From a virus: 33,005 nt of DNA. The DNA lies in UHGV virus genome UHGV-0323875; one strand, given 5' to 3'. Below, in pieces: positions 1 through 33,005 of the stretch. The first letter of the stretch is position 1; each line of letters opens with the position of its first letter. Both the position numbers and the translations under genes were made by a program. Below the pieces are notes generated by a model, which was given only the letters and a program-made list of their open reading frames with translations, made no database searches and had not been told where the DNA came from.

Positions 1-812
1 TAGCCATCAAGTTCAATTTCTGATATCTCACCTTCGATCAGCACGATTTTGGCTGTCTGATTACTGGATACCGTAGTAGATTTTGACTTGAGTGTCTTAC
101 GTCCTTTAATCAACCATGACCCGCCACCATCTTTGACCCAGTCAACAAGAGTCTCAGCCCAATGAGAACCTTTGAGTTTCAAATTGCCATCTTTGTTTTC
201 AAAAATAGTGGTCACAGTATTTGCATTGGTATCTTTTTCAAGCTTCCGTAAATCATTGGTTAACGCTTGCTTACTGCTTCCGAAGATATTCGGAGTAATC
301 AGCGTAAAGCTGACTTTGTCGATAAATTGAAGCCTATGGTATTCTGACCAAAAATCTTCCATTTCAAGACAAGGCTCTATAAATATTCTAAGTCCTAACT
401 GAGCCAAATAGTCGTTATTGGCTAGATCTTCAAACGCTTTAGCAACTTGTTGCGCATCCTTGAAAACAGCGGTTTTCCTCTCAACCAGTAACACCTGCTC
501 TACTTTGTCCCAAATCCATACGATAGGTGGATAGTTGTCTACATCGTACTCTCGAAAGTCTTTATCATGTCCTTTAATCTTTTGCAGCTTTGATATGACT
601 CCAGCCATAACACCATCAGTAGGTTTTATGCTCAATTTCAGGGTGTAACTAGTTTTCTTATGAACGGAAGGTGTTGATGACGTCATGTGTAAATTTTTTG
701 CAGCGATAACCATAGCATTTTCAAAATGAGAGATATCTTTCTGAACAGTTCCTTTCGAAAAGAGGTCTGGATCGCGCGGTCTCATTAACACACGTAAGGC
801 ATACAACTGCAT
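1..812 (-). CDS. Hypothetical protein, runs off the window (more than 270 aa); AT-rich; N-terminus MQLYALRVLMRPRDPDLFSK
   Basis: ATG at 812 (minus) preceded by AGGAG with a 7 nt spacer; the minus-strand frame stays open to position 1; GC content clearly lower than the prophage core; no family recognised by eye. Not in the ORF track because it is truncated by the window edge. Confidence 0.5.
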   Translation of the reverse strand, partial: MQLYALRVLMRPRDPDLFSKGTVQKDISHFENAMVIAAKNLHMTSSTPSVHKKTSYTLKLSIKPTDGVMAGVISKLQKIKGHDKDFREYDVDNYPPIVWIWDKVEQVLLVERKTAVFKDAQQVAKAFEDLANNDYLAQLGLRIFIEPCLEMEDFWSEYHRLQFIDKVSFTLITPNIFGSSKQALTNDLRKLEKDTNANTVTTIFENKDGNLKLKGSHWAETLVDWVKDGGGSWLIKGRKTLKSKSTTVSSNQTAKIVLIEGEISEIELDG

Positions 813-890
813 AAGAAAACTCCTGTAAACTATTTGGTTTCATTATTCCATAAAACCAAGCACTTTCAAGAGCTTAATTTTCTTTCAATT

Positions 891-906
891 CTGTATGCAT
901 ATACAG
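891..906. promoter_or_regulatory. Consensus LexA (SOS) box CTGTATGCATATACAG in the promoter region of the leftward gene 1..812
   Basis: Perfect CTGT-N8-ACAG palindrome with an AT-rich spacer, about 80 nt upstream of the minus-strand ATG at 812; overlaps TTTACA/TATATG and TTGAAA/ATAATG promoter-like hexamers on the minus strand. Confidence 0.55.
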
Positions 907-1515
907 TATCATTCAATTTTGTAAAATTCAAACCTTGATTTTTGCCCATTCCTTACCACGATCATCATGGTATTTAGCTGTCTGGTTAGGCGATTTATGT
1001 CCCAGAAGTTTTTGGGTGTCGACGCCCTGAGCTTCGTAAAGTCGCTCAGATAAAGATCTTTGTTCATGGAATGTGGCGGGCGAACCTTCACCCCAGTCAA
1101 TGCCTGCTAAATCCCTCGCTTTACTGAAATTCATCGTCAATGTATTGGCTTTTACTTGCGCGCCACGTTCAGCCTGTGAAGTAGTACGAAAAAAATGTAC
1201 AAGGTATGGGCTGACTGCATAGTCACGGCAGCGGGCTACTACATCGCGTAAACTCCAGTTAATTGCATTGAGGCGAAGGGAAAGCGGGATGGCGATTTTG
1301 CTCCCGGTTTTTTCTTGGATGACGTGAAGATGATCATCCCAAATATCGCTAAATTTCATACGTGAGATATCACCTAACCGTTGGCCGGTAACCAGTGCTA
1401 ACAGCATGGCATTCCCCATATAACGATGGCGGGCATCTGCGATATCAAAGATTTTTTGCCATTCTTCAAGACTTAACCGTTGTCGGGTAATTTTTCTTCT
1501 GGGTTGTTTGGTTGC

Positions 1516-1552
1516 CAGTGCTGGATTATAGCCCGGAGGTACTTCCCCATAG
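1516..1552. repeat. Left arm of a 37 bp inverted repeat (1 mismatch) bounding the inverted int segment
   Basis: The reverse complement of 1516..1552 equals 1843..1879 except for one A/C difference; encodes GEVPPGYNPA on the minus strand. Confidence 0.85.
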
Positions 1553-1842
1553 GACAGGATCGCAACCAGCAAAGGAAAAGCAATCACAACGTCAACCTGG
1601 TTAGATCGCTATCAAGCAATCCAGGATGACAGACTGGAAAGTGGCGATATAAAGCTAAACACCTATAAACAGAAAGCCAAACCAGTATCCTTGCTCAGGG
1701 AACGAGCAGGAATGAAATTAATTTCATCAGTTGATGTAAGGGATATAGCACAATTACTTGACGAGTATATCACTGCCGGGCAACCGAGGATGGCGCAAGT
1801 AGTCCGCTCCGTTCTAATTGATGTATTCAAGGAGGCACAACA

Positions 1843-1879
1843 CTATGGGGAAGTCCCTCCGGGCTATAATCCAGCACTG
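1843..1879. repeat. Right arm of the 37 bp inverted repeat in int
   Basis: CTATGGGGAAGTCCCTCCGGGCTATAATCCAGCACTG; encodes GEVPPGYNPA on the plus strand. Confidence 0.85.
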
Positions 1880-2054
1880 CCGGGTTCTTTGCTCAGCCAG
1901 GCGTGAATTTGCCTCAGTGGCAATAGCAATGGCTTCAGCTTCGTTTGTGCCTAAAGAATGAAACTTCCCGGTCACTGGATGTTTATATCGCCAATAGACT
2001 TTATTTACTTTTCTACTATAAAGCGGATACAAGTTCGGGACTGAAACATTATTT

Positions 2055-2300
2055 TTACGTGGTCTGGCTGCCATTACTTAAAATCCTTTGTAGAATAATA
2101 GAATCATTTTTCTTGATGACAGGAGTAACTAATTCCCCAACTAACTCTGCGTCCTCACGCACTCGCCATAGTCGACCTTGTTTCATTGCCGGTGGACAAA
2201 ATAAATTCTGCTTAGCATAACGACGCAATGTGGACACGCTTGGAGGATTACTTCTGTATTTTTCCGCAGCCCATTCCTCAAGTGTCAGCATTTGAAGCAT
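2055..2300 (-). CDS. xis: Excisionase (lambda Xis-like)
   Basis: LTLEEWAAEKYRSNPPSVSTLRRYAKQNLFCPPAMKQGRLWRV parallels the lambda Xis N-terminus; overlaps the int start as in lambda; start chosen at the internal ATG with a GAGG RBS (ORF track extends to 2315). Confidence 0.7.
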   Translation of the reverse strand: MLQMLTLEEWAAEKYRSNPPSVSTLRRYAKQNLFCPPAMKQGRLWRVREDAELVGELVTPVIKKNDSIILQRILSNGSQTT

Positions 2301-19219: not shown

Positions 19220-19847
19220 TGTACCGCTGAGTCTGAAATCTGTCAGTGACTCCGGTGAGTTTGAAGGATATGGCTCCGTCTTTGGTGTAAAGGACAGTCA
19301 CGATGATGTGGTGATGTCCGGGGCATTTGCTGCGTCCCTGCGGGCGTGGAGTGACAGAAAAGCGTTACCTGCGCTGCTCTGGCAGCACCGCATGGATGAG
19401 CCCATCGGTGTTTACACCGAAATGAAGGAAGACGATGTCGGGCTTTACGTCAGAGGGCGGTTGCTCATTGATGATGATCCCCTGGCAAAACGCGCACATG
19501 CACACATGAAGGCCGGTTCGTTAACCGGCCTTTCTATTGGGTACGTCCTGAAGGACTGGGAATACGACCGGACGAAAGAAGCCTTTCTGCTGAAAGAAAT
19601 CGACCTCTGGGAAGTCAGTCTGGTGACGTTTCCGTCTAACGACGAGGCGCGGATCAGCGACGTCAAGAACGCACTGGCCCGCGGGGAAATCCCCGAACAG
19701 AAAAAAATCGAAAGAGTCCTGCGTGATGTCGGACTCTCCCGTACCCAGGCCAAAGCATTCATGGCCGGGGGCTATGGCGCACTGTCCCTGCGCGACGCTG
19801 AGGATGTGGGCTCTGCACTGAATGCACTGAAAAATCTGAACTTCTAA
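19197..19847 (+). CDS. Prohead maturation protease (HK97 family)
   Basis: Follows the portal gene; AAGGA RBS; size about 216 aa. Confidence 0.7.
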   Translation: MQTKQRLDVPLSLKSVSDSGEFEGYGSVFGVKDSHDDVVMSGAFAASLRAWSDRKALPALLWQHRMDEPIGVYTEMKEDDVGLYVRGRLLIDDDPLAKRAHAHMKAGSLTGLSIGYVLKDWEYDRTKEAFLLKEIDLWEVSLVTFPSNDEARISDVKNALARGEIPEQKKIERVLRDVGLSRTQAKAFMAGGYGALSLRDAEDVGSALNALKNLNF

Positions 19848-19861
19848 TCAGGAGAAATACG

Positions 19862-21067: not shown

Positions 21068-21074
21068 TCACTCA

Positions 21075-21094
21075 GGGGCGCGGAACCGCGCCCC
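21075..21094 (+). other. GC-rich stem-loop (GGGGCGCG-GAAC-CGCGCCCC) immediately after the capsid gene; possible attenuator or RNA-stability element
   Basis: Perfect 8 bp stem; no strong T-tract. Confidence 0.45.
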
Positions 21095-21116
21095 CTGTTC
21101 TGACGGGTGAAGAATC

Positions 21117-21317
21117 ATGATCCTGAAACAAGATCTGAAATGGTCACCGGACGGTATGCGTGTTGAGGTCATTCAGGCCGGTGAGTATGACGACGGGGCG
21201 CTTCCTGCCCGGGTGCAGGAGATTGCACTTCAGGCCGGGTTAGCAGAGCGCGGAATCAGTGCAAAAAGCAGTAAAGCGGCAAAAGAGAAAAAAGCCACGA
21301 CCAGTAAAGAGGGATGA
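21117..21317 (+). CDS. Small hypothetical head-module protein
   Basis: 66 aa ORF between the capsid and connector genes. Confidence 0.35.
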   Translation: MILKQDLKWSPDGMRVEVIQAGEYDDGALPARVQEIALQAGLAERGISAKSSKAAKEKKATTSKEG

Positions 21318-21643
21318 GTATGCTTCTGACAATGGAAGAGATTAAAGCCCAACTCCGGCTGGATGAGGATTTCGATACTGATGACCGCCATCTGCAACTG
21401 CTGGCATGTGCGGCACAAAAGCGGACGGAAACGTATCTGAACCGGAAGCTCTATGCACCGGATGAAACCATTCCGGACAGCGATCCGGACGGGCTGCACC
21501 TGCCGGATGATATTCGTCTGGGGATGCTGATGCTTATCAGCCATTTTTACGAAAACCGCTCGTCGGTTACGGAAGTGGAGAAACTCGACATGCCGCAGAG
21601 TTTTGGCTGGCTTGTCGGCCCGTACAGGTACTTTCCTCAATGA
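21314..21643 (+). CDS. Head-tail connector protein (gp6-like)
   Basis: About 109 aa; conserved position after the capsid gene. Confidence 0.5.
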   Translation: MSMLLTMEEIKAQLRLDEDFDTDDRHLQLLACAAQKRTETYLNRKLYAPDETIPDSDPDGLHLPDDIRLGMLMLISHFYENRSSVTEVEKLDMPQSFGWLVGPYRYFPQ

Positions 21644-22050
21644 AAATTCGTCAGGCGCAGACCAGCGCAACCTACATTCTGCCGGACCCCGGTGAACTGA
21701 ATAAACGCGTCCTGATCCGCCTGCGGGTGGATATGCCCGCGGATAACTTTGGCGTGGAGCCTCAATACCCGGTTACGTTCCGGACATGGGCGAAGGTTAT
21801 CCAGACCAGTGCCACCACCTGGCAGGAAACCGCGCAGACCGGGGACGCCATCACCCATTACATCACCATTCGTTACCGCCGGGGGATCACCGCTGATTAT
21901 GAGGTGGTCTGCGGTGACAGTGTGTACCGGGTGAAACGTCAGCGCGATCTGAACGGGGCGCGGCGCTTTCTGCTGCTGGAGTGTACGGAGCTGGGCGAAT
22001 GTAGGCAGAGTCACGGAGGCAACAATGACGACTTCCTTTTTACACGTTGA
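21640..22050 (+). CDS. Head closure / head-tail joining protein
   Basis: Position and size. Confidence 0.45.
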   Translation: MKIRQAQTSATYILPDPGELNKRVLIRLRVDMPADNFGVEPQYPVTFRTWAKVIQTSATTWQETAQTGDAITHYITIRYRRGITADYEVVCGDSVYRVKRQRDLNGARRFLLLECTELGECRQSHGGNNDDFLFTR

Positions 22051-22531
22051 TTTTCAGCAGCCCGCGGAGATGCGCTTTAACCGCGCCCGTGTCCGGCGGG
22101 CGTTTGTCACGATTGGTCAGCGTCATATGCGTGATGCCCGTCGGCTGGTGATGCGCCGTGCGCGGTCGGCACCGGGTGAAAACCCCGGTTATCAGACCGG
22201 ACGCCTGGCTCGTTCGATTGGTTACATGGTGCCGAGAGCCAGTAAAAAGCGAGCCGGTTTTATGACACGCATTGCCCCTAACCAGCGCAACGGGAAGGGG
22301 AACCGGATGATCTCTGGTGACTTCTATCCGGCGTTTCTGTTTTTTGGTGTCCGGGGAGGAGCAAAACGTCGTCGTAGTCATCATCGTGGTGCATCCGGTG
22401 GCAGCGGCTGGCGACTGGCTCCACGTAATAACTTCATGGTGGAAACGCTTGAAAAGAACCGCAGCTGGACACGCTATTTTCTGGCGCGGGAATTGCGTAA
22501 ATCACTGAAGCCGGAGCGACGACACAGATGA
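22025..22531 (+). CDS. HK97 gp10-like tail-attachment protein (putative)
   Basis: Basic protein of about 168 aa in the conserved position. Confidence 0.4.
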   Translation: MTTSFLHVDFQQPAEMRFNRARVRRAFVTIGQRHMRDARRLVMRRARSAPGENPGYQTGRLARSIGYMVPRASKKRAGFMTRIAPNQRNGKGNRMISGDFYPAFLFFGVRGGAKRRRSHHRGASGGSGWRLAPRNNFMVETLEKNRSWTRYFLARELRKSLKPERRHR

Positions 22532-23088
22532 AACTGACGCCTGTTATTGCTGCACTGCGTGCCCGCTGTCCGTATTTTGAAAACCGGGTGGCAGGCGCGG
22601 CCCAGTTCAAAAATCTGCCGGAGGTCGGAAAGCTGAGACTCCCGGCGGCGTATGTGGTACCGGGTGATGACTCTCCGGGAGAAAACAAAAGCCAGACCGA
22701 CTACTGGCAGGAGCTGAAAGAGGGCTTCTCCGTGGTTGTCATACTGAGTAACGGGCGTGATGAGCGCGGTCAGTTTGCCTCGTATGATGTGGTGGACGAT
22801 GTCCGGCAGATGCTCTTTAAGGCTCTGCTGGGCTGGAACCCGGAGGCGTGCGGTAACCCGATTACCTATGACGGCGGCACGCTGCTGGATCTGAATCGTC
22901 ATGAGCTGATTTATCAGTTCGATTTTTCGGTCATCAGCGAGCTGACTGAAGACGATACCCGCCAGCAGGATGATCTGAACAGTCTGGATGAACTGCAAAC
23001 GCTGGCGATTGATGTTGATTATCTCGAGCCCGGTAACGGGCCTGACGGCGATATCGAACATCACACCGAAATAACCCTTCCTTCCTGA
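22528..23088 (+). CDS. Tail terminator / virion morphogenesis protein (putative)
   Basis: Position just before the sheath gene. Confidence 0.4.
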   Translation: MKLTPVIAALRARCPYFENRVAGAAQFKNLPEVGKLRLPAAYVVPGDDSPGENKSQTDYWQELKEGFSVVVILSNGRDERGQFASYDVVDDVRQMLFKALLGWNPEACGNPITYDGGTLLDLNRHELIYQFDFSVISELTEDDTRQQDDLNSLDELQTLAIDVDYLEPGNGPDGDIEHHTEITLPS

Positions 23089-23096
23089 GGATCCTC

Positions 23097-23267
23097 ATGT
23101 TTGTCAAACCTGTTAAAGGGCGGTCAGTTCCTGACCCTGCCCGCGGCGACCTTTTGCCCGCCGAAGGGCGAAATGTTGACGAGAACAACTACTGGCTGCG
23201 CCGTGAAGCAGCGGGTGATATCCGGCGCGTGAATAAAAAGGTGAATACCGATGACGATAAGCTTTAA
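23097..23267 (+). CDS. Small conserved tail-module protein (DUF2635-like), 56 aa
   Basis: ATG at 23097 with a GAGGA RBS; MFVKPVKGRSVPDPARGDLLPAEGRNVDENNYW; below the ORF-track cut-off. Confidence 0.45.
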   Translation: MFVKPVKGRSVPDPARGDLLPAEGRNVDENNYWLRREAAGDIRRVNKKVNTDDDKL

Positions 23268-24747
23268 CACCATTCCGTCGAATACGCTGGTTCCGTTGTT
23301 TTATGCGGAAATGGATAACCAGGCGGCGAATACTGCACAGGACAGCGGAGCATCGCTGCTGATTGGTCATGCCAATAACGGTGCAGAGATTGTTGCCAAC
23401 AGTCTGGTACTGATGCCGTCGGCAGACTATGCACGCCAGATTTGTGGTGCGGGAAGTCAGCTGGCGCGTATGGTCGAGGCTTATCGCCAGACTGACCCGT
23501 TTGGCGAGCTGTATGTGATTGCCGTTCCTGAATCCACAGGCGCGGCGGCAACGGTTACGCTGACGGTGACCGGGGCGGCAACCGAAACCGGCACGGTGAA
23601 TGTGTATGTGGGACGTACCCGCGTGCAGGCACCGGTGACTAACGGCGATAACGTCACGATGATTGCCAGCAGTATCCAGGATGCCATCAATGCCGTTCCG
23701 GCCCTGCCGTTTACGGCTTCATCTTCGGCAGGCGTGGTTACACTGACCGCGCGTCATAAGGGGCTTTGCGGGAATGAAATTCCTGTCAGCCTCAATTACT
23801 ACGGCTTTGGTGGGGGCGAAGTGCTGCCAGCGGGCGTACAGATTGCCGTGGCGACGGGTACCGCCGGAACGGGTGCTCCGGTTCTCACCGGCGCGGTGGC
23901 TGCAATGGCGGATGAGCCGTTTGATTATATCGGCCTGCCGTTCAACGACACGGCCTCCGTTAACACGCTGGTGACCGAGATGAACGATACCAGCGGTCGC
24001 TGGAGCTATGCGCGTCAGCTGTATGGTCATGTGTATACGGCAAAGATCGGCACGCTGTCAGAACTGGTGACCGCAGGTGACCAGTTTAACCAGCAGCACA
24101 TTACCCTGGCGGGGTACGAAAAAGACACCCAGACGCCTGCCGACGAGCTGGCGGCAAGCCGTACCGCCCGCGCAGCGGTGTTTATCCGCAACGATCCGGC
24201 ACGTCCCACGCAGACCGGTGAGCTGGTGGGTATGCTGCCTGCGCCGAAGGGGAAACGGTTCACGATGACCGAACAACAGACCCTGCTGTCTCATGGCGTG
24301 GCAACGGCGTATGTCGAAAGCGGGGTACTGCGCATTCAGCGTGATGTCACCACGTACAGGAAAAACGCTTACGGGGTTGCGGATAACAGCTACCTCGACA
24401 GCGAGACGCTGCATAGCAGTGCGTATGTACTGCGCAAACTGAAATCCGTCATTACCAGTAAGTACGGGCGTCACAAGCTTGCCAGCGACGGTACCCGCTT
24501 TGGTCCCGGTCAGGCGATTGTCACCCCGGCGGTGATCAAAGGGGAACTGCTGGCAACCTACCGTCAGCTTGAGCGTGCGGGGATCGTGGAAAACTACGAA
24601 CTGTTTAAGCAGTACCTGGTTGTGGAGCGTGATGCCAGCGATCCGAACCGCCTGAACACGCTGTTCCCGCCTGACTATGTTAACCAGTTGCGTGTCTTTG
24701 CCGTGGTTAACCAGTTCCGTCTTCAGTATTCAGAGGAGTCTGCATAA
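23251..24747 (+). CDS. Tail sheath protein (Mu gpL-like)
   Basis: 498 aa; followed by tube, chaperone and tape-measure genes. Confidence 0.75.
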   Translation: MTISFNTIPSNTLVPLFYAEMDNQAANTAQDSGASLLIGHANNGAEIVANSLVLMPSADYARQICGAGSQLARMVEAYRQTDPFGELYVIAVPESTGAAATVTLTVTGAATETGTVNVYVGRTRVQAPVTNGDNVTMIASSIQDAINAVPALPFTASSSAGVVTLTARHKGLCGNEIPVSLNYYGFGGGEVLPAGVQIAVATGTAGTGAPVLTGAVAAMADEPFDYIGLPFNDTASVNTLVTEMNDTSGRWSYARQLYGHVYTAKIGTLSELVTAGDQFNQQHITLAGYEKDTQTPADELAASRTARAAVFIRNDPARPTQTGELVGMLPAPKGKRFTMTEQQTLLSHGVATAYVESGVLRIQRDVTTYRKNAYGVADNSYLDSETLHSSAYVLRKLKSVITSKYGRHKLASDGTRFGPGQAIVTPAVIKGELLATYRQLERAGIVENYELFKQYLVVERDASDPNRLNTLFPPDYVNQLRVFAVVNQFRLQYSEESA

Positions 24748-25103
24748 TGGCCCGTATCGGGGGAACCTGTTATTTCAAAATTGACGGTCAGCAGCTATCG
24801 CTGACCGGCGGCATTGAGGTGCCCATGAACAGGACGGTCAATGATGACATCATCGGCCTGGACGGTTCAGTGGACCGCAAGGAAACTCACCGTGCGCCTT
24901 ATGTTAAAGGGACCTTCAAGGTGCCGAAGAATTTTCCGGTGAGCAAAATCACCTCGTCTGATGAGATGACCATCACTGCCGAGCTGGCGAACGGTCAGGT
25001 CTATGTACTGTCGTCTGCCTGGCTGCACGGCGAAGCGAACCATAATGCCGAAGAAGGGACGGTTGATCTTGAGTTCCACGGTGAAGAAGGGGATTACCAG
25101 TAA
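24747..25103 (+). CDS. Tail tube protein (Mu gpM-like)
   Basis: 118 aa; directly after the sheath gene. Confidence 0.65.
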   Translation: MARIGGTCYFKIDGQQLSLTGGIEVPMNRTVNDDIIGLDGSVDRKETHRAPYVKGTFKVPKNFPVSKITSSDEMTITAELANGQVYVLSSAWLHGEANHNAEEGTVDLEFHGEEGDYQ

Positions 25104-25372
25104 TGAAAGAGCTTGAGTTAAAGAAACCGATTACTGCTCATGGCGAGACACTCTCCGTACTGGAGTTTGATGAGCCCACCGGGAAAGATGTCCGCGAGCT
25201 GGGGTATCCCTACCAGATGAATCAGGATGAGTCCGTCAGACTTCTGGCGCATGTGGTATCGAAATACATTGTGCGGCTGGCGAAAGTGCCGCAAAACTCT
25301 GTCGACCAGATGTCTCCGGCAGACCTGAATGCTGCGGCGTGGCTTGTGGCTGGTTTTTTCCTCCAGGCCTGA
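25103..25372 (+). CDS. Tail assembly chaperone; a -1 frameshift would extend the product to 25521
   Basis: Conserved position before the tape-measure gene; slippery heptamer at the 3' end; ORF 25339..25521 lies in the -1 frame. Confidence 0.65.
   Translation: MKELELKKPITAHGETLSVLEFDEPTGKDVRELGYPYQMNQDESVRLLAHVVSKYIVRLAKVPQNSVDQMSPADLNAAAWLVAGFFLQA
25354..25360 (+). promoter_or_regulatory. Putative -1 programmed ribosomal frameshift site T_TTT_TTC
   Basis: X_XXY_YYZ heptamer in the zero frame of the chaperone gene, five codons before its stop. Confidence 0.6.
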
Positions 25373-25513
25373 CGGCTGAATACCTCACTGATCGCTTCTT
25401 TGACTGCGCCAGCTACTGGCGCATTAATCCCTTCGAATTGCTGAATATGCCGATCAGTGAAATTCCCTTGCTGGTCAGTCAGGCAAACAGGATAGAGCAG
25501 GAGAAACGCACAC

Positions 25514-27349
25514 ATGGCTGAATTTGAGCTTAAGGCGTTGATCACCGGTGTCGACAGACTTTCTCCCGCGCTGTCGAAAATGCAAAAGAAAATCCGGGGA
25601 TTTAAACGCCAGGCGGAAGAAGCATCACAGGGTGGGCTGGCGCTTGGTGGCGGACTGGCAGCGGGTCTGACGCTTTCCCTGAAATCTTATGCCGATCAGG
25701 AAAACGCCGCCACCGGGCTGAAAGTCGCCATGATGGATGCGAACGGCGAGGTCGGAAAGAGCTTTCAGGACATCAATAAACTGGCTATTGGCCTGGGTAA
25801 CCAGCTACCCGGTACAACGGCTGATTTCCAGAACATGATGCAGATGCTGGTGCGTCAGGGGATCCCGGCAGAAAACATTCTTGGTGGTGTGGGTAAAGCG
25901 ACAGCTTATCTTGCGGTACAACTGAAAAAAACACCGGAAGCGGCTGCTGAGTTTGCTGCAAAGATGCAGGATGCTACCGGAACGGCGTCAGAAGACATGA
26001 TGGGGCTGTTCGACACTATCCAGAAGGCGTTTTATCTGGGCGTTGACGATACCAACATGTTGTCCTTCTTCACTAAAACCAGTTCTGTTCTGAAGATGGT
26101 GAACAAGGACGGTCTTCAGGCTGCACAGAGCCTTGCCCCTATCAGCGTCATGATGGATCAGATGGGGATGAACGGGGAGTCGGCAGGTAATGCCCTGCGA
26201 AAAGTTATCCAGTCCGGATTAAGCGTTAAGAAAATCAGGGACGTCAATAAAGTCATGGCCCGCCAGAAACTCGGAGTGCAGCTCGATTTTACTGACGGCA
26301 AAGGGAGTTTTGGCGGTCTTGATAACATGTTCAGGCAACTGGCAAAGCTGCGAAAACTGACCGACGTTAAGCGAACAGGTGTACTTAAGGCAATATTTGG
26401 TGATGATGCCGAAACCCTTCAGGTGGTCAATGCTCTGATCGATAAAGGAAAGGATGGTTACGATCAGATCCAGCAGAAGATGAATAAACAGGCCAGCCTG
26501 AATAAACGTGTTCAGGCACAGCTTGGTACGCTGTCCAACCTGTGGGAGGCAATGACGGGGACCGCAACTAACGGTCTTGCAGCTATTGGCGGCGCATTTT
26601 CTGGTGACGCTAAAAATATCACGCAATGGCTGGGGGAGTTGGGGGAAAAATTCACGAAGTTTGCGGATGAAAATCCCCGGGTTATTCGCGGCGTCGTCGG
26701 GCTTGCTGCCGGTCTTGCGATTCTGAAACTGGGATTGATGGGCGTGGGCAGTGCCATCAGTATCGTCAGCAGGATCATGTCGATGACGCCGATTGGCATG
26801 ATTGCGACGGCGATTGCCCTGGCTGCGGGATTAATTATCACTAACTGGGATGTTGTCGGACCTTATTTTAAGAAACTCTGGGAAACCATTAGTCCTTATT
26901 TTGAGGCTGGCTGGGAACTTCTGAAGAAGGTTTTTGCCTGGTCGCCGCTGGGGATGGTGATCAATAACTGGGGACCGGTTGTTAAGTGGTTTCAGCATAT
27001 GTGGGATAAGCTGAAGCCGATTATTGAATGGTTTACCGACAGTTCCGGTGACACGGTCGATGCCATTAACTCGGCGCAGTGGGGCGCGGGTGCTTATGAT
27101 GCTTATGGGACGGGAATACCGGCACGGGGATACACTCCTTATCCGGCGGTGGATCCGGCTCAGGCAAACAACGCCTCCGATGCCACAGGCTCGAATCCCT
27201 TCATGATTAACAAAGCTTCTGCGCCAAAAGTTGATGGTGAGATCAAGGTCTCTTTTGTGAATTCGCCTCCGGGTATGCGGGTTATGGAAACGCGATCCAG
27301 CGGTTTTGATGTCAGCCATGATGTTGGCTATACGCGCTTTGGCAGGTAA
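25514..27349 (+). CDS. Tail tape measure protein
   Basis: 611 aa, Ala/Gly-rich with central hydrophobic segments; conserved position. Confidence 0.75.
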   Translation: MAEFELKALITGVDRLSPALSKMQKKIRGFKRQAEEASQGGLALGGGLAAGLTLSLKSYADQENAATGLKVAMMDANGEVGKSFQDINKLAIGLGNQLPGTTADFQNMMQMLVRQGIPAENILGGVGKATAYLAVQLKKTPEAAAEFAAKMQDATGTASEDMMGLFDTIQKAFYLGVDDTNMLSFFTKTSSVLKMVNKDGLQAAQSLAPISVMMDQMGMNGESAGNALRKVIQSGLSVKKIRDVNKVMARQKLGVQLDFTDGKGSFGGLDNMFRQLAKLRKLTDVKRTGVLKAIFGDDAETLQVVNALIDKGKDGYDQIQQKMNKQASLNKRVQAQLGTLSNLWEAMTGTATNGLAAIGGAFSGDAKNITQWLGELGEKFTKFADENPRVIRGVVGLAAGLAILKLGLMGVGSAISIVSRIMSMTPIGMIATAIALAAGLIITNWDVVGPYFKKLWETISPYFEAGWELLKKVFAWSPLGMVINNWGPVVKWFQHMWDKLKPIIEWFTDSSGDTVDAINSAQWGAGAYDAYGTGIPARGYTPYPAVDPAQANNASDATGSNPFMINKASAPKVDGEIKVSFVNSPPGMRVMETRSSGFDVSHDVGYTRFGR

Positions 27350-27410
27350 TGAAAAATTAATCTGTTAATGAGTCCCACTCCGGTGGGATTTTTTATGTAC
27401 GGAGTTTATA

Positions 27411-28759
27411 TGACGTGGAAAGACAGACTTCAGGACGCGTCATTTCGCGGTGTGCCGTTTAAGGTTGAAGAAGAAAGTACGGGAACCGGTCGTCGTGTGG
27501 AAACGCACGAATACCCGAACCGCGACAAACCCTATACCGAAGACCTGGGGAAAATCACTTTCCGCCCGTCCATCACGGCTTATGTGGTGGGAGATGACTG
27601 CTTTGACCAGCGCGATCGCCTGATTGACGCGCTGAATAAACCCGGTCCCGGCACGCTTGTCCATCCGACTTACGGTGAGCTGAAAGTCTGTGTTGACGGA
27701 GAGGTTCGGGTCAGCACATCGAAGAGTGAAGGGCGTATTGTCCGCTTTGACCTGAAGTTTGTCGAAGCGGGAGAACTCTCTTACCCCACTTCAGGTGCGG
27801 CGACGGCGCAGACGCTGATGTCATCCTGTTCTGCACTGGATGACTGCATCAGTGACAGCTTCAGCGGTTTCAGTATCGATGGCGTGGCGGATTTCGTGCA
27901 GAACGACGTTATTGGTAATGCCAGCATAATGCTGGGGTATGTTTCTGATGCGATGAAAGTGGTGGATTCTGCCGTATCGGATGCCGCCAGGCTGTTGCAG
28001 GGGGATATCTCGGTACTTCTGCCGCCGCCATCGTCAGGCAAAAATTTCGTTGAGCAGGTGCAGAAAATGTGGCGTACCGGGAAACGCCTTTATGGTAACG
28101 CCAGCGATCTGGTCACCATGATCAAAACGCTTTCCGGTGTCAGCCTCGGCAGTGATCTGCAACCGCGCGGCGTCTGGAAAACGGACAGTAAAATCCGCAT
28201 TCAGATCTGCTTTCACCCGGCGCAGCGCCAGAAACAGCGCATCACTGGTTGTACGGGACAACTCCTTATCAATTGCCGTATTCAGTGTGTCGCGAATGTC
28301 AGTCAGTTCTTCCCACGTCGGCAGATCAACCGTGTTTTTCATCGCCGGTGCATTGTTCAGTGCCGGATGCGTGACGGAAGGCCAGCCGGTGCTCTGTGCA
28401 GCTGTTGTTGCCTGCCCCACTGCGGCATTCTGCATCACCGCGGAAGTTGTTGGCGCAGGCAATCGGGTGACGGCATACGCCGCTTCGCTGATTGCGGTCG
28501 TACGAAGGGTGCTGGCAACCACGTTACGCTGCTGCGTCGCCGTAGCGGTGGTTTTACTGTCCGTTTTCCAGACGCCAACACGCGCCTTGAACAGTCTGCA
28601 CGGATCATTCAGCGCACACCGGATGAGGTTTTACCCGCGCTGGTGCTGGCGGCGACCTGGTTTGATAACGCGACGCGTGACGCGGACATTATCCGGCGTA
28701 ATGCCATTACGCATCCCGGCTTTGTGCCGGTGATCCCTCTGAAGGTGCCAGTGCAATGA
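27411..28759 (+). CDS. DNA circulation protein (Mu gpN/gp43-like); carries an internal 358 bp segment in inverted orientation but remains one open frame
   Basis: N-terminus MTWKDRLQDASFRGVPFKVEEESTGTGRRVETHEYPNR; residues encoded by 28194..28551 are Cys/Arg-rich junk on the plus strand while the minus strand reads TTATATQQRNVVASTLRTT...KADLNAD. Confidence 0.65.
28169..28193. repeat. Left arm of a perfect 25 bp inverted repeat (GGCGTCTGGAAAACGGACAGTAAAA) inside the DNA circulation gene
   Basis: Exact reverse complement of 28552..28576. Confidence 0.9.
28552..28576. repeat. Right arm of the perfect 25 bp inverted repeat (TTTTACTGTCCGTTTTCCAGACGCC)
   Basis: Exact reverse complement of 28169..28193. 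Confidence 0.9.
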
Positions 28760-29835
28760 ACGATAACGTCACGCTACGGGTAAATGGCCGGGAGTGGAAT
28801 GGCTGGACATCGGTGCGCATCGGTGCCGGTATTGAACGGCTGGCGCGGGATTTCAGTGTGGAGATCACCCGCCAGTGGCCGGGAGATGAGGGTATCACCA
28901 CGCTTCAGCCGCGCATTAAAAACGGTTCAAAAGTGGAAGTGCTGATTGGTGATGAGCGGGTGATCACCGGCTGGGTGGAGGCGACTCCCGTTCGTTACGA
29001 TGCCCGTTCGGTCAGCACCGGTATTGCCGGACGCAGTCTGACCGCTGACCTGATTGACTGTGCAGCCGAACCGACACAGTTTAACGGACGATCGCTGGTA
29101 CAGATTGCGCAGGCGCTTGCTGCGCCTTTCGGCATTGAGGTGGTGAACAGCGGTGCGCCGTCGGGTGTTATTCCTGATGTCCAGCCTGATCACGGTGAAA
29201 CGGTGATTGAGGTAATCAACAAAATACTCGGTCAGCAGCAGGCACTGGCTTACGACGATCCGCACGGCAGGCTGGTGATTGGCGGTATTGGCTCAACGCG
29301 GGCACATACCGCGCTGGTACTTGGGGAAAACATCCTTTCCTGCGATACGGAGAAGAGTATCCGGGAGCGGTTTTCTGTTTACCAGGTGGCGGGGCAGCGT
29401 GCCGGAAACGACGATGATTTCGGTGAGGCCACCACCACCGCGCTGCGGGCCCGCACAGAGGACGCATTTATTGCCCGTTACCGTCCGATGTATATCAGGC
29501 AGACAGGGCAGGCTACGGGGGCAGGCTGTATTGCGCGTGCTGACTTTGAAGCCCGGCAACGGGCGGCGCGGACGGATGAAACCACCTATGTGGTGCAGGG
29601 CTGGCGACAGGGTAACGGTACGCTGTGGCAACCCAACCAGCGGGTGATTGTCTTTGATCCGGTCTGTGGTTTTGACAATACCGAACTGCTTGTTTCGGAA
29701 GTCACGTTTACTCAGGACCAGAACGGCACCCTGACGGAAATCCGTGTCGGCCCGCCTGATGCTTATCTGCCTGAACCTGAAGACCCCGGCGCGCGGAAAA
29801 AGAAAAAAGCCAGAGTACAGGAGGACCCGTTCTGA
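28756..29835 (+). CDS. Baseplate hub protein (Mu gpP/gp44-like)
   Basis: 359 aa; position after the DNA circulation gene. Confidence 0.65.
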   Translation: MNDNVTLRVNGREWNGWTSVRIGAGIERLARDFSVEITRQWPGDEGITTLQPRIKNGSKVEVLIGDERVITGWVEATPVRYDARSVSTGIAGRSLTADLIDCAAEPTQFNGRSLVQIAQALAAPFGIEVVNSGAPSGVIPDVQPDHGETVIEVINKILGQQQALAYDDPHGRLVIGGIGSTRAHTALVLGENILSCDTEKSIRERFSVYQVAGQRAGNDDDFGEATTTALRARTEDAFIARYRPMYIRQTGQATGAGCIARADFEARQRAARTDETTYVVQGWRQGNGTLWQPNQRVIVFDPVCGFDNTELLVSEVTFTQDQNGTLTEIRVGPPDAYLPEPEDPGARKKKKARVQEDPF

Positions 29836-30383
29836 TGAGGACGATTGAAGCCATGCAGCGACAACTTCTCGGCCTGATTGGGCGGGCAGTGGTGAAAAGC
29901 ATCAGTGCCGCCACGAAATGTCAGACCGTGGATGTGTCCCTGATTGCCGGTGAACCCAAAGCCGGGGTTGAACATCTTGAACCCTACGGTTTTACCGCAA
30001 GGGCAAACAGCGGTGCGGAAGCGGTGGTGTTGTTTCCGGATGGCGACCGTTCTCATGCGGTGGTTGTTACGGTGTCGGACCGGCGCTACCGCCTGAAAGG
30101 GCTGCATACGGGGGAGGTGGCTGTCTATGACGATCAGGGGCAGTCCGTGACGCTGACCCGGGAGGGGATCGTGGTGGACGGTGCAGGTAAAACAATCACG
30201 TTTCGCAATGCGCCTAAGGCTCGTTTTGAAATGGACCTGGAAGTGACCGGACAGGTGAAAGACCTGTGCGACTCCACCGGCACCACCATGTCAGCGATGC
30301 GGCTTGCCTATAACGGGCATCGTCACAGAGAGAACGGTCAGGGCAGTAACACCGACAAACCTGATAAAGCGATGGAGGCATGA
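29835..30383 (+). CDS. Baseplate assembly / spike protein (gpV, Mu gp45-like)
   Basis: 182 aa; conserved order. Confidence 0.6.
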   Translation: MRTIEAMQRQLLGLIGRAVVKSISAATKCQTVDVSLIAGEPKAGVEHLEPYGFTARANSGAEAVVLFPDGDRSHAVVVTVSDRRYRLKGLHTGEVAVYDDQGQSVTLTREGIVVDGAGKTITFRNAPKARFEMDLEVTGQVKDLCDSTGTTMSAMRLAYNGHRHRENGQGSNTDKPDKAMEA

Positions 30384-30808
30384 TGGAACTGTGGCTGACG
30401 GTGAACGGTAAACGCACCTGCGCCAGCGCACCGCTGGATCCGCTGACCCGTGCCGTGGTGATTTCCCTGTTCACCTGGCGGCGGGCTGAACCTGATGACA
30501 ATGCCGACGTCCCGATGGGATGGTGGGGGGATACCTGGCCTGCGGTACAGAATGACCGTTACGGCTCCCGACTGTGGCTGCTTCAGCGCAGCAAACTGAC
30601 CAATCAGCTGGTGCAGACGGTAAGGGGATATATCCGCGAATGCCTGCAATGGATGATTGATGACGGCGTGGTGTCCCGTATTGATCTGGATATCCGCCGC
30701 ACCGGGATTAATGAGCTGGGTAACAGTATCACCCTCTGGCGTCGTGACGGACCGGTAATGATTTCTTTTGATGATCTGTGGAGTGCGATAACGCATGGCG
30801 GACAGTGA
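30380..30808 (+). CDS. Baseplate wedge protein (GPW/gp25-like, Mu gp46)
   Basis: 142 aa; conserved order. Confidence 0.6.
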   Translation: MMELWLTVNGKRTCASAPLDPLTRAVVISLFTWRRAEPDDNADVPMGWWGDTWPAVQNDRYGSRLWLLQRSKLTNQLVQTVRGYIRECLQWMIDDGVVSRIDLDIRRTGINELGNSITLWRRDGPVMISFDDLWSAITHGGQ

Positions 30809-31853
30809 ATTTCAACGCCCGACGCTGGCAGAAAATATCAGTATGCTCCGTAACGATTTATTCGCCAGGCTGGACGTCAGCGACACGCTCCGGCGCATGG
30901 ATGAAGACGTGCGGGCAAAGGTGTATGCGGCGGCGCTGCATACGGTTTACGGTTACATCGATTATCTGGCAATGAACATGCTGCCTGACCTGTGCGATGA
31001 GTCCTGGCTGGCGCGACATGCTGCGATGAAACGGTGTCCGCGCAAGGGGGCCACGTCTGCCAGCGGGTATATGCGCTGGGAAGGTGTCAGCGATGGCCTG
31101 AAGGTGACCGCCGGGAGTGTTATTCAGCGCGATGACCTGGTTCAGTACACGACAACTGACGATGCAACCAGCTCCGGTGGTGTCCTGCGCGTGCCGATCG
31201 CCTGCTCAAGTGCAGGTGCGGTCGGTAACGCTGACGACGGTACGGCATTAATCCTGGTCACGCCGGTGAATGGTCTGCCGTCTTCCGGTGTGGCTGACAC
31301 CATTACAGGCGGATTTGATACTGAAGAGCTGGAAACGTGGCGCGCCCGCGTCATTGAGCGGTATTACTGGACGCCGCAGGGCGGGGCTGACGGGGACTAT
31401 GTCGTTTGGGCTAAAGAAGTGCCCGGCATTACCCGCGCATGGACATACCGTCACTGGATGGGAACGGGAACTGTCGGTGTGATGATTGCCAGCAGTGACC
31501 TGATTAATCCCATTCCGGAAGAATCAACGGAAACGGCAGCAAGACAACATATCGGGCCACTGGCCCCGGTGGCAGGCTCTGATTTGTATGTATTCAGGCC
31601 GGTGGCACATACGGTGGATTTTCATATCCGCGTGACGCCGGACACACCAGAAATACGGGCTGCCATTACCGCGGAGTTGCGTTCGTTCCTGCTGCGTGAT
31701 GGTTATCCGCAGGGAGAACTGAAGGTATCGCGTATCAGTGAGGCGATTTCCGGTGCGAACGGGGAATACAGCCATCAGTTGCTTGCACCGGTGGACAATA
31801 TCTCCATTGCGAAAAACGAACTGGCGGTACTGGGGACGATTTCATGGACGTGA
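30795..31853 (+). CDS. Baseplate J-like protein (Mu gp47-like)
   Basis: 352 aa; conserved order. Confidence 0.65.
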
Positions 31854-32428
31854 CAAACGATGATTACATCCGCCTGTTATCGGCACTGTTGCCGCCCGGT
31901 CCGGCGTGGTCAGCCAGCGATCCGGCGATTGCCGGTGCGGCACCGTCATTAACCCGTGTTCATCAGCGTGCGGATGCCCTGATGCGGGAGCTGGATCCGC
32001 GCACCACCACTGAACTGATAAACCGCTGGGAGCGTCTGTGCGGTCTGCCGGATGAATGTATTCCCGCAGGGACACAGACCCTTCGTCAGCGTCAGCAACG
32101 GCTGGATGCGAAGGTTAACCTGGCGGGCAGCATCAACGAGAATTTTTATCTTGCACAGCTTGCTGCCCTGGGCAGACCAGATGCCAACATCACGCGATAC
32201 GACAAAAGCACGTTCACCTGCTCATCGGTCTGTACTGACGCGGTGAATGCGCCGGAATGGCGGTATTACTGGCAGGTCAACATGCCAGCCGCCACAAACA
32301 CCACCTGGATGACATGTGGCGATCCCTGTGATTCCGCGCTGCGTATCTGGGGCGACACCGTTGTCGAATGTGTGCTTAACAAACTCTGCCCGTCGCATAC
32401 CTACGTAATTTTTAAATATCCGGAGTAA
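31844..32428 (+). CDS. Tail protein (Mu gp48 / YmfQ-like, DUF2313)
   Basis: 194 aa; immediately precedes the tail-fibre gene. Confidence 0.6.
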
Positions 32429-32431
32429 TCC

Positions 32432-33005
32432 ATGCATCGTATAGACACGAAAACCGCGCAGAAGGATAAGTTCGGCGCGGGTAAGAACGGTTTTACCCGT
32501 GGTAACCCCCAGACCGGCACACCTGCCACCGATCTGGATGATGACTACTTTGACATGTTGCAGGAGGAACTTTGCAGTGTTGTGGAGGCATCCGGTGCCA
32601 GCCTAGAGAAGGGGCGGCATGACCAGCTGCTTACAGCGCTTCGTGCGCTGCTGTTAAGCCGCAAGAATCCGTTTGGCGATATCAAATCGGATGGCACGGT
32701 GAAAACGGCTCTCGAAAACCTTGGTTTGGGAGAAGCGGCAAAACGAAATGTGGGAACAGGGGAAAATCAGATACCTGATATGTCATCATATGCATCAGGT
32801 TCAGGCTGGCGAAAAATGCCAGATGGTTCAATTGAACAGTGGGGACGAATTAGTTTTCCTGGTGATTACTTCGTCTATATCAACACCTTTTTCTTCAGGC
32901 CATTCACCTTTTTCAACATAAAGAGACTGAAGTTCGTAAGGATATGCCAGGTTGTTTACGTACAGATATTTCATCATTACCAGCCCTTAGCGAAAAACGC
33001 ACCAC
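32432..33005 (+). CDS. Side tail fibre protein, N-terminal part (StfP/StfE-like); the reading frame becomes antisense junk after about residue 143
   Basis: [48 protein letters not shown] is a conserved tail-fibre N-terminus; a [14 protein letters not shown] motif follows; downstream [17 protein letters not shown] is F-rich and antisense to a minus-strand gene start. Confidence 0.6.
32828..32977 (-). CDS. Tail-fibre-assembly-like gene start ([37 protein letters not shown]), apparently truncated after about 38 codons
   Basis: ATG with an AAGGG RBS and an in-frame upstream stop; the N-terminal pattern (AYPYEL...G.WPEE) resembles Tfa proteins; the remainder is antisense of the tail-fibre gene. 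Confidence 0.4.

What the first reader, a model, noticed from the sequence alone, without database searches (positions are those of the whole stretch)
28169..28576. Perfect 25 bp inverted repeats flank a 358 bp inverted segment inside the DNA circulation gene, open in frame in both orientations
Arms 28169..28193 and 28552..28576 are exact reverse complements. Between them the plus-strand frame continues without a stop but encodes Cys/Arg-rich sequence, while the minus strand encodes ordinary Thr/Ala-rich protein. Flipping the segment in silico gives one continuous plausible protein: ...LQPR-GVWKTDSK-TTATATQQRNVVASTLRTT...KADLNAD-FTVRFPDA-NTRLEQ... The arms plus segment total 408 bp, a multiple of 3. 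A perfect 25 bp inverted repeat encoding two unrelated peptides is not expected by chance. This looks like an intragenic invertible element caught in the alternate orientation, or a recent repeat-mediated inversion. No invertase gene is visible in the window.
Basis: seen in the sequence. Interest (0 to 1): 0.85.

Follow-up and report, generated by a model that had tools for sequence, protein, structure and literature searches.

The report
Private inversion scar, not a switch
The perfect 25-bp inverted repeat around a flipped 358-bp piece of a phage tail gene is really in the sequence, but it is a one-off rearrangement scar, one of three in this window and absent from more than 1000 related prophages, so it is not a working genetic switch and is probably a technical artefact or a gene-killing accident.

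Summary
Arms 28169-28193 and 28552-28576 are exact reverse complements, the 358 bp between them is inverted relative to every homologue, and the ORF stays open. The invertible-element reading is not supported. Only the left arm is native sequence. The right arm is absent from all about 1,090 E. coli genomes and 12 phages that carry this gene, including a contig identical to the window over 13.2 kb. The window allele is reproduced exactly from the native gene as native[..826] + reverse complement of native[801..1184] + native[1188..]. That is an inversion with a 25-nt inverted duplication and a 4-nt deletion (dupINVdel, template-switch type 3-1-2-4). The repeat is therefore a product of the event, not its substrate. 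Two more private events with the same signature lie in the window: 1516-1879 in the integrase gene (out of frame) and a junction at 32865 in the tail-fibre region. The prophage's real Pin site (32712-32731) behaves quite differently: it is dyad-symmetric, conservative, and found in both orientations among relatives. Three such events in 33 kb, with no point differences over 13.2 kb, suggest one common error process. My estimates are technical origin about 0.55, in vivo about 0.3, engineered about 0.1. Interest is low.

The parts
27368..28759 (+). Mu gp43/N-like 'DNA circularization' tail/baseplate gene carrying the rearrangement. The start annotated in relatives corresponds to 27410, giving 449 aa here against 442 aa native.
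   Evidence: ORF; Pfam DNA_circ_N E=6e-34; annotation of homologues.
28169..28193 (+). Left arm. This is native sequence (codons for GVWKTDSK) in its native place, spanning switch point 3 (start) to point 1 (end).
   Evidence: Present and colinear in JB2 and SfI; all E. coli matches run up to 28193 and stop there.
28194..28551 (-). Inverted spacer of 358 nt. The native coding sense is now on the minus strand, and the plus strand reads the codon-aligned antisense (Arg/Cys-rich).
28552..28576 (-). Right arm. This is a new inverted duplicate of the left arm and is absent from every homologue. It replaces native TATC, for a net gain of 21 nt.
   Evidence: Alignment; 1,095 of 1,095 records show the 21-nt gap; exact four-point reconstruction.
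1516..1879 (.). Second event of the same architecture, in the intE-type integrase gene. Arms 1516-1552 and 1843-1879 (37 nt, 1 mismatch, private G>T at 1540), 290-nt inverted spacer, 15-18 nt deleted, net +19 nt (frameshift).
32865..33005 (.). Left junction of a third private inversion (about 302 nt in relatives) at the end of the tail-fibre variable part and the start of tfa. The right junction lies beyond the window end.

Best explanation
This is a private, non-programmed rearrangement scar, not a switch. SHOWN: the ancestral gene, still present unchanged in a 100%-identical relative, has only the left 25-mer. The window allele equals native[..826] + reverse complement of native[801..1184] + native[1188..], in gene offsets. 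That is an inversion of 358 nt with a 25-nt inverted duplication at one junction and a 4-nt deletion at the other, with 1 nt of microhomology at each junction. This is the dupINVdel form, or template-switch type '3-1-2-4'. The perfect inverted repeat is therefore a by-product of copying or joining the piece backwards, which explains why it is perfect and why it 'encodes two unrelated peptides'. The result replaces 121 native residues of a tail/baseplate protein with 128 residues of antisense translation, which almost certainly destroys function. It stays in frame by luck: the sister event in the integrase gene is out of frame. INFERRED: the window holds three such private events (1516-1879, 28169-28576 and 32865 onwards) with similar piece sizes (327, 383 and about 300 nt) in DNA that has no point differences from its nearest relative over 13.2 kb. 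They probably share one error process outside normal evolution. I think a technical origin is most likely (about 0.55): for example, short read-sized pieces joined in the wrong orientation, or polymerase strand-switch chimeras in the sequenced material. A real burst of inter-strand template switching in the source clone is about 0.3, and deliberate editing about 0.1. The confidence given below is for the core claim, that the scar is non-programmed and the repeat is a product of the event.
For: The right arm is absent in JB2 and SfI and in all 1,095 matching E. coli records, which span 113 of 134 nt with a maximum identity of 83.6%. No record crosses the left junction. None of 1,097 genomes or 12 phages has the window's orientation. 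L003 (GCA_019147615.1) is identical to the flipped window over 13,201 bp except for the 21-nt indel. The four-point reconstruction reproduces the 1,392-bp window gene exactly. The exact protein is not on record in the 153-billion-position gene index used by the look-up of encoding contigs, for three alternative starts. No protein among 5.8 billion spans the junction peptides. The junction 24-mer is absent from the genome, metagenome and viral collections. Two further private events share the signature: E1 and E3. As a control, a natural structural variant in the same window is shared by 761 genomes. [quoted passage not shown] Supporting a technical origin: the private base change at 1540 sits 12 nt from the end of the left flank, in the copy that overlaps the inverted piece. 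This is where contig-end errors would fall, although an error-prone polymerase would also explain it.
Against: No reads are available, so the split between technical origin and in vivo origin rests only on the improbability of three rare events in 33 kb. The sequence is otherwise of perfect quality (0 mismatches in 13.2 kb), which is unusual for a poor assembly. The overlaps (25 and 37 nt) are not a constant k-mer length, so a simple de Bruijn-graph joining error does not fit. The copied fragments (327-383 nt) are far longer than the tens of bases typical of described template-switch mutations. Microhomology at the junctions is minimal (0-3 nt). The motif GGAAAAC, which resembles a Pin half-site, lies at two of the three first switch points and is unexplained.
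Confidence: 0.87

Rival explanations
1. These are real in vivo mutations: a burst of inter-strand template switches at stalled or uncoupled replication forks in the source clone. The leading strand leaves its template at point 1 and copies the single-stranded lagging template backwards from near the fork junction (point 2) to just behind where it left (point 3). It then returns to the leading template at the fork junction (point 4). This inactivates the integrase, gpN-like and tail-fibre genes of the prophage.
For: The geometry fits exactly. Point 2 lies close to point 4 and point 3 just behind point 1 in both complete events, as one fork would give. Both events have the same polarity. There is a private substitution near one junction, as reported for error-prone replicative repair (from my own knowledge, not checked here). 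The mutation class is documented (PMC5453318; dupINVdel is named in PMC5338099). The sequence is otherwise flawless.
Against: Three very rare events in 33 kb, with zero point mutations in 13.2 kb, would imply hundreds genome-wide if the process were not prophage-specific. No such allele was seen in any other assembly. The fragments are about ten times longer than typical events of this class.
Confidence: 0.3
2. This is a programmed intragenic invertible element (a phase-variable or domain-swapping switch) caught in its alternate orientation.
For: A perfect 25-bp inverted repeat, total length a multiple of 3, and an ORF open in both orientations. A Pin-family invertase probably belongs to this prophage, just outside the window.
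Against: The right arm is absent in all homologues. Only one orientation is seen in over 1,000 genomes and 12 phages. The junctions are non-conservative, +25/-4 nt. The arms lack the dyad symmetry of pix sites. The alternate 'product' is antisense translation with no full-length homologue among 5.8 billion proteins. The open frame is expected in about 22% of comparable events. Sister events in the integrase and tail-fibre genes rule out a gene-specific design.
Confidence: 0.02
3. This is an inversion by homologous (RecA) or slipped recombination between pre-existing inverted repeats.
For: 25 bp is close to the minimal length for RecBCD-dependent recombination in E. coli (from my own knowledge, not tested here).
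Against: The ancestral sequence has no second copy. At the right junction the relatives read GAT-ATC-AAC, with only 1 nt of microhomology.
Confidence: 0.01
4. This is aberrant action of the prophage's Pin invertase on pseudo-sites.
For: GTCTGGAAAACG in the arm matches 9 of 12 positions of the pix half-site CTCTCGAAAACC by my own visual alignment of the sequences. GTTTTCC also lies 6 nt before the 32865 junction. pinE is present in relatives.
Against: Serine invertases exchange strands conservatively at a 2-bp core (established knowledge), whereas here 23-37 nt are duplicated and 2-18 nt lost. There is no second half-site or dyad. The junctions do not fall at the putative core. The integrase-gene event has no such motif. 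None of the events uses the true pix site as a partner.
Confidence: 0.02
5. The sequence was deliberately edited or simulated, with structural variants introduced into a real prophage sequence.
For: Three same-type private events in otherwise identical DNA. The source was not found in any collection searched.
Against: The junctions are untidy in an enzymatic way, with variable duplication (25 or 37 nt), variable deletion (4 or 18 nt) and a point change in one arm. A simple 'plant an inverted repeat' routine would give either no net length change or a net gain equal to the arm length. The P segment is in a different, natural orientation from the identical relative L003, so the window is not simply that record edited.
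Confidence: 0.1

Closest known systems
Template-switch mutation, four-point model type '3-1-2-4' (Loytynoja and Goldman 2017, PMC5453318); its classical bacterial special case is quasipalindrome template switching (Ripley; Dutra and Lovett, as cited in that paper)
   Same: The mutant is reproduced exactly as F1 + reverse complement of a nearby fragment + F3, with switch points in the order 3<1<2<4. It creates a new perfect inverted repeat flanking an inverted spacer, and the ancestor lacks the repeat.
   Different: The copied fragment is 327-383 nt rather than tens of bases. There was no pre-existing quasi-palindrome. Microhomology is only 0-3 nt. There are three events in 33 kb. An in vivo origin is not shown.
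dupINVdel complex inversions of human genomes (Collins et al. 2017, PMC5338099)
   Same: An inversion flanked by a duplication on one side and a deletion on the other. The term is used in that paper. That such variants are generally attributed to replication-based mechanisms is from my own knowledge; I did not read the paper beyond the search hit.
   Different: From my own knowledge, the human cases are kilobase-to-megabase in scale and eukaryotic. Here the event is 0.4 kb, lies inside a prophage gene, and is possibly not biological at all.
Pin/P-segment tail-fibre inversion system of e14-type prophages (Hin/Gin/Cin/Pin family)
   Same: It is in the same prophage: DNA inversion between inverted repeats that alters a tail gene. 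The window contains one true crossover site at 32712-32731.
   Different: The true system has dyad-symmetric 12-2-12 sites present in all relatives. Both orientations occur among genomes (L004 and the window versus JB2). Exchange is conservative and pinE lies adjacent. The 28169-28576 element fails every one of these criteria.
Inversions with inverted duplications at breakpoints from staggered breaks (Drosophila; e.g. PMC3355041)
   Same: The same end product: an inverted duplication of breakpoint sequence flanking an inversion. Point 1 lies close to point 3 and point 2 close to point 4, as break-and-rejoin would give.
   Different: Those are megabase-scale events repaired by eukaryotic end-joining. 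From my own knowledge, E. coli lacks canonical NHEJ, and no enzyme is known to make 25-37-nt staggered cuts.

Membership tests
Programmed invertible DNA segment (serine-invertase switch / inverton) | Both inverted repeats are present at the segment ends in related elements | tested here: not met
   The right arm is absent in 1,095 of 1,095 E. coli records, in SfI and JB2, and in the 100%-identical L003.
Programmed invertible DNA segment (serine-invertase switch / inverton) | Both orientations are found among relatives or within populations | tested here: not met
   0 of 1,097 genomes and 0 of 12 phages have the window's orientation. Within-sample heterogeneity is not testable without reads.
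Programmed invertible DNA segment (serine-invertase switch / inverton) | Conservative exchange, with no nucleotides gained or lost | tested here: not met
   23-25 nt duplicated and 2-4 nt deleted, for a net gain of 21 nt.
Programmed invertible DNA segment (serine-invertase switch / inverton) | Crossover sites with the dyad-symmetric 12-2-12 architecture of pix/gix/hix | tested here: not met
   Searching for TCNNAAACCNNGGTTTNNGA with up to 3 mismatches finds the true site at 32712-32731 (0 mismatches) and one 3-mismatch hit at 11359-11378, which is at chance level (1.43 expected). It does not find the arms. Only one half-site-like motif is present.
Programmed invertible DNA segment (serine-invertase switch / inverton) | A cognate recombinase is encoded nearby | tested here: inconclusive
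   None lies in the window. pinE lies about 2.5 kb beyond the window end in relatives JB2 and fEC.1, but its sites bracket the tail-fibre P segment, not this gene.
Programmed invertible DNA segment (serine-invertase switch / inverton) | Each orientation gives a meaningful product or expression state | tested here: not met
   The current orientation encodes codon-aligned antisense sequence (22 R and 13 C in 128 aa). The only database matches are 9 short spurious antisense ORFs.
Template-switch mutation type 3-1-2-4 / dupINVdel | The derived sequence is reproduced exactly from the ancestral one by F1 + reverse complement (point 2 to point 3) + F3 | tested here: met
   Exact match of the 1,392-bp gene using L003 as ancestor. 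Equivalent solutions are enumerated. E1 is reproduced with 1 mismatch.
Template-switch mutation type 3-1-2-4 / dupINVdel | Switch points in the order 3<1<2<4, giving a new inverted repeat around an inverted spacer that the ancestor lacks | tested here: met
   801<826<1184<1188. Definition from PMC5453318. The ancestor lacks the repeat.
Template-switch mutation type 3-1-2-4 / dupINVdel | Short range: copied fragment of tens of bases, as in the described cases | tested here: not met
   The copied fragments are 383 and 327 nt.
Template-switch mutation type 3-1-2-4 / dupINVdel | Arose in vivo during DNA replication | not testable with these tools
   This needs the source reads or culture. The clustering of three events argues against ordinary mutation.
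Recombination between pre-existing inverted repeats | The inverted repeat is present in the un-inverted ancestor | tested here: not met
Assembly or library artefact (misoriented piece or chimera) | The junctions are private to one assembly and absent from independent assemblies of identical DNA; several same-type events occur in the same sequence | tested here: met
   0 of 1,090, 0 of 499 and 0 of 96 genomes carry the three junctions. L003 is identical apart from the event. A natural variant used as a control is shared by 761 genomes.
Assembly or library artefact (misoriented piece or chimera) | Raw reads fail to support the junctions | not testable with these tools
   The source record and its reads could not be located.

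The most novel reading that the evidence does not exclude
The three events are genuine in vivo products of replication-fork uncoupling in an E. coli lysogen. In this reading the leading strand copied 300-380 nt of the lagging template backwards and returned at the fork junction, possibly after stalling at protein-bound Pin-half-site-like motifs (GGAAAAC at two of the three first switch points). This would be a natural record of unusually long-range template-switch mutation in bacteria. It would also show how perfect inverted repeats flanking a segment, the raw material of invertible elements, can arise de novo in a single step inside a gene.
Probability: 0.15. Interest if true: 0.55.

Novelty: not a real feature. 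Interest (0 to 1): 0.15.

Why it matters
As a biological switch it does not hold up, so its main value is as a caution. A perfect inverted repeat flanking an in-frame inverted segment looks exactly like an inverton to PhaseFinder-style scans or to the eye, yet it can be the by-product of a single copy-backwards event. Comparison with close relatives tells the two apart in minutes. The checks are whether both arms are ancestral, whether both orientations exist, and whether the exchange is conservative. The window conveniently contains a true Pin site as an internal positive control. If the events proved to be real in vivo, they would document 300-400-nt inter-strand template switching in bacteria and the de novo birth of inverted repeats. 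They would also mark a prophage disabled at its integrase, baseplate and tail-fibre genes.

Tried and rejected
1. I looked for the same allele elsewhere. The exact protein was not found with three alternative starts. The minus-strand chimeric ORF and the private ORFs created by the integrase event were not found. The junction 24-mer was absent from genome contigs, metagenome contigs and viral contigs. A protein search with only the scrambled stretch found 9 short antisense ORFs on the native arrangement and nothing spanning the junctions. The source record could not be identified.

2. Pin-mediated inversion was considered because relatives carry pinE and the arm has a pix-like half-site. It was rejected because the arms have no dyad, the junctions are non-conservative, they do not fall at the core, and the true pix site is not a partner.

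3. Homologous recombination between pre-existing repeats was rejected because the ancestor has no second copy.

4. 'Open in frame in both orientations implies design' was rejected by simulation and by the out-of-frame sister event.

5. An IS or transposon origin was rejected because the window is colinear with relatives at all junctions, with no foreign DNA.

6. A simple de Bruijn-graph repeat ambiguity was rejected because the right arm is itself novel and the overlaps differ (25 versus 37 nt).

7. I checked whether the rest of the window hides more events. The inverted-repeat scan and colinearity with relatives found none. The 640-bp difference at about 8645 is a common natural variant.

8. 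I did not run structure prediction or the representative-protein search, because they would not bear on the question.

Full report
OBSERVATION. The reported repeat is real. Arms 28169-28193 and 28552-28576 are 25 nt, 100% complementary, and 358 nt apart. The chance expectation is about 3e-8 such pairs in the window. They lie inside ORF 27368..28759 (+), which reads through without a stop. The left arm begins on a codon boundary and the unit is 408 nt. The gene is the Mu gp43/N-like 'DNA circularization' tail/baseplate gene of an SfV/SfI-like tail module (Pfam DNA_circ_N E=6e-34; annotations). It is followed by gp44/P-, gp45-, gp46-, gp47- and gp48-like baseplate genes. The plus-strand translation of the rearranged block is Arg/Cys-rich, and the minus strand gives the Ala/Thr-rich native sequence.

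ALL HOMOLOGUES HAVE THE OTHER ORIENTATION. The gene matches 1,097 of 5,426 complete E. coli genomes and 12 phages (SfI, SfII, SfIV, SfV and others). In every case it matches only as two same-strand pieces covering 73%, with the middle on the other strand. No record covers 80% or more. A 141-nt probe across the left junction is crossed by no record: all matches stop at the last base of the left arm.

THE REPEAT IS A PRODUCT OF THE EVENT, NOT ITS SUBSTRATE. I aligned the in-silico-flipped window with E. coli JB2 and phage SfI. The left arm is ordinary native coding sequence (GVWKTDSK), but the right arm does not exist in the homologues. They read ...AATGCGGAT-ATC-AACACG..., where the flipped window reads ...AATGCGGAT-TTTACTGTCCGTTTTCCAGACGCC-AACACG.... 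A probe for that configuration finds 1,095 records, and every one has the 21-nt gap (113 of 134 nt spanned, maximum identity 83.6%). A draft contig, L003 (GCA_019147615.1), is identical to the flipped window at all 13,201 aligned bases (window 19514-32735) apart from this 21-nt indel, so the ancestral state is known essentially exactly. Applying to its gene the operation native[..826] + reverse complement(native[801..1184]) + native[1188..] reproduces the window's 1,392-bp gene base for base. Allowing for 1 nt of ambiguity at each junction, 23-25 nt are duplicated in inverted orientation, 358-360 nt are inverted and 2-4 nt are lost. [quoted passage not shown] In structural-variant terms it is a dupINVdel (PMC5338099). 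It explains why the repeat is perfect and why its two copies 'encode unrelated peptides': one is simply the reverse complement of real codons.

THE OPEN FRAME IS NOT EVIDENCE OF DESIGN. The inversion happens to place the codon-aligned antisense frame in register. That frame is stop-free for 191 codons in this gene, because only 5 of 456 codons are TTA, CTA or TCA. In simulations, about 22% of comparable local events (3.5% gene-wide) remain open and in frame. Flipping the segment back would not restore the wild type; it would give a +7-aa allele (Ile382 replaced by FTVRFPDA). The present allele keeps 261 N-terminal and 60 C-terminal native residues around 128 residues of antisense translation. 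A search of 5.8 billion proteins with that stretch returned only nine short spurious antisense ORFs called on the native arrangement, and none spans either junction.

IT IS ONE OF THREE. Comparison of the whole window with relatives revealed two more private events of the same kind.

(E1) Window 1553-1879 matches the intE-type integrase gene of strain fEC.1 in reverse. It overlaps 37 nt already present in the forward part (arms 1516-1552 and 1843-1879, 290-nt inverted spacer), with 15-18 nt lost and a net gain of 19 nt, which splits the integrase ORF. None of the 499 genomes with this integrase crosses the junction. The single arm mismatch is a private G>T at 1540, 12 nt before the junction, while the inverted copy keeps the ancestral base.

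(E3) At 32865/32866 the window jumps to the reverse complement of sequence that lies about 300 nt downstream in L004 and JB2. All 96 genomes with this region break there. The other junction is beyond the window end.

No further events exist. The whole-window inverted-repeat scan finds only these, and the rest is colinear with relatives. As a control, the one other structural difference from fEC.1, about 640 bp missing at about 8645, is an ordinary mosaic variant shared by 761 genomes.

THE PROPHAGE'S REAL INVERSION SYSTEM IS A CONTRAST. The window contains a dyad-symmetric pix-type site, CTCTCGAAAACC-TT-GGTTTGGGAGAA, at about 32709-32734 (pattern match 32712-32731 with 0 mismatches). Colinearity with L003 and JB2 ends exactly at its outer edge, whereas L004 continues through it. 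JB2 has the expected inverted pair of sites bracketing a fibre/tfa P segment next to pinE, and fEC.1 has the equivalent recombinase. A programmed inversion here therefore has sites conserved in all relatives, both orientations found among genomes, conservative exchange and an adjacent invertase. The 28169-28576 element fails each of these tests, and its arms are not found by the pix pattern even with 3 mismatches allowed.

HOW IT AROSE. What is shown is the sequence operation: two strand switches or joins. What is inferred is where it happened. Three otherwise very rare events in 33 kb, with piece sizes of 327, 383 and about 300 nt, sit in DNA with no point difference from its nearest relative over 13.2 kb. 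Independent mutations would not be expected to give this; a single error process would. None of the junctions, junction peptides or private ORFs occurs in any collection searched.

I lean towards a technical origin (about 0.55). One candidate is short, read-sized pieces that overlap one neighbour by less than a typical minimum overlap, fall a few bases short of the other neighbour, and are joined in the wrong orientation. This would give exactly C1 + rc(C2) + C3, and it would place a contig-end error where the private 1540 change sits. The other candidate is polymerase strand-switch chimeras in amplified DNA.

An in vivo origin (about 0.3) is mechanistically coherent. In an uncoupled fork the leading strand could copy the exposed lagging template backwards from the fork junction to just behind its departure point and then return at the fork junction. 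That would naturally give point 2 close to point 4 and point 3 just behind point 1, as observed in both complete events.

Deliberate editing (about 0.1) cannot be excluded, but it fits poorly with the irregular duplication and deletion sizes and with the natural P-segment orientation difference from L003. A programmed switch, recombination between pre-existing repeats, and Pin action at pseudo-sites are each at or below about 0.02.

VERDICT. The feature is best filed as a non-programmed dupINVdel scar, probably not a biological feature of the organism. If it is biological, it is a gene-inactivating accident of a known mutational class. Interest is low (0.15). The residual novel reading, a genuine burst of long-range template switching that creates inverted repeats de novo, has a probability of about 0.15.

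Noticed in passing
window 1516-1879: A second private inversion with inverted duplication lies in the intE-type integrase gene: 37-nt arms with one mismatch (private G>T at 1540), a 290-nt inverted spacer, 15-18 nt deleted, net +19 nt. It splits the integrase into ORFs 1814..2074 and 928..1587 on the minus strand. It is absent from all 499 E. coli genomes with this integrase.
   Followed up: yes
window 32865-33005: A third private inversion breakpoint lies 130 bp past the pix site, at the end of the tail-fibre variable part and the start of tfa. The window continues as the reverse complement of sequence about 300 nt downstream in relatives L004 and JB2. The right junction lies beyond the window end. 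It is absent from all 96 genomes with this region.
   Followed up: partly
window 32709-32734 (pattern match 32712-32731): A genuine Pin-type crossover site (CTCTCGAAAACC TT GGTTTGGGAGAA) lies about 280 nt into the tail-fibre gene. Relatives differ in P-segment orientation exactly at this site, and they carry pinE or a 'recombinase family protein' about 2.5 kb beyond the window's right end. The prophage therefore almost certainly has a real invertible tail-fibre segment, only partly inside the window.
   Followed up: partly
window 28176-28182, 32853-32859 (and the duplicate at 28563-28569): GGAAAAC/GTTTTCC, which resembles the pix half-site core, lies inside the 25-nt arm of the finding and 6 nt before the 32865 junction. 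There are 12 occurrences in the whole window. It is at two of the three first switch points. This may be coincidence, or a hint that a protein-bound site stalls replication. It is unexplained.
   Followed up: partly
L005 (GCA_052645715.1, contig JBQXXQ010007219.1, 286 bp): A tiny contig from the Escherichia sp. SS-MK2 assembly (contig accession JBQXXQ010007219) is a fold-back chimera of this same gene region. It runs antisense through the native arm, then switches to sense about 45 nt upstream at an ACCGG microhomology, so it contains both the arm and its reverse complement. This shows that strand-switch chimeras of this locus do enter public assemblies as artefacts.
   Followed up: partly
P0001-P0006 (antisense of the gpN-like gene in other genomes): Public protein collections contain several 100-195-aa 'proteins' that are codon-aligned antisense ORFs of this gene (Arg/Cys-rich). 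They are called because the antisense frame is unusually free of stops.
   Followed up: no
window about 8640-8649: Relative to strain fEC.1 the window lacks a 640-bp N-6-adenine-methyltransferase gene between yfdN and a LexA-family gene. The two matches to fEC.1 on either side of the missing block overlap by 10 nt in the window (8640-8649). This arrangement is shared by 761 E. coli genomes, so it is an ordinary mosaic variant.
   Followed up: yes
window 1-33005: The window is a mosaic prophage. It has an e14-like integration and immunity module (intE, xis, yfdR/Q/P, S24 repressor) joined to an HK97-like head and a Mu/SfV-like contractile tail and baseplate module. The best complete-genome relatives are only 97-99% identical, but a draft contig (GCA_019147615.1) is 100% identical over the tail region.
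   Followed up: partly
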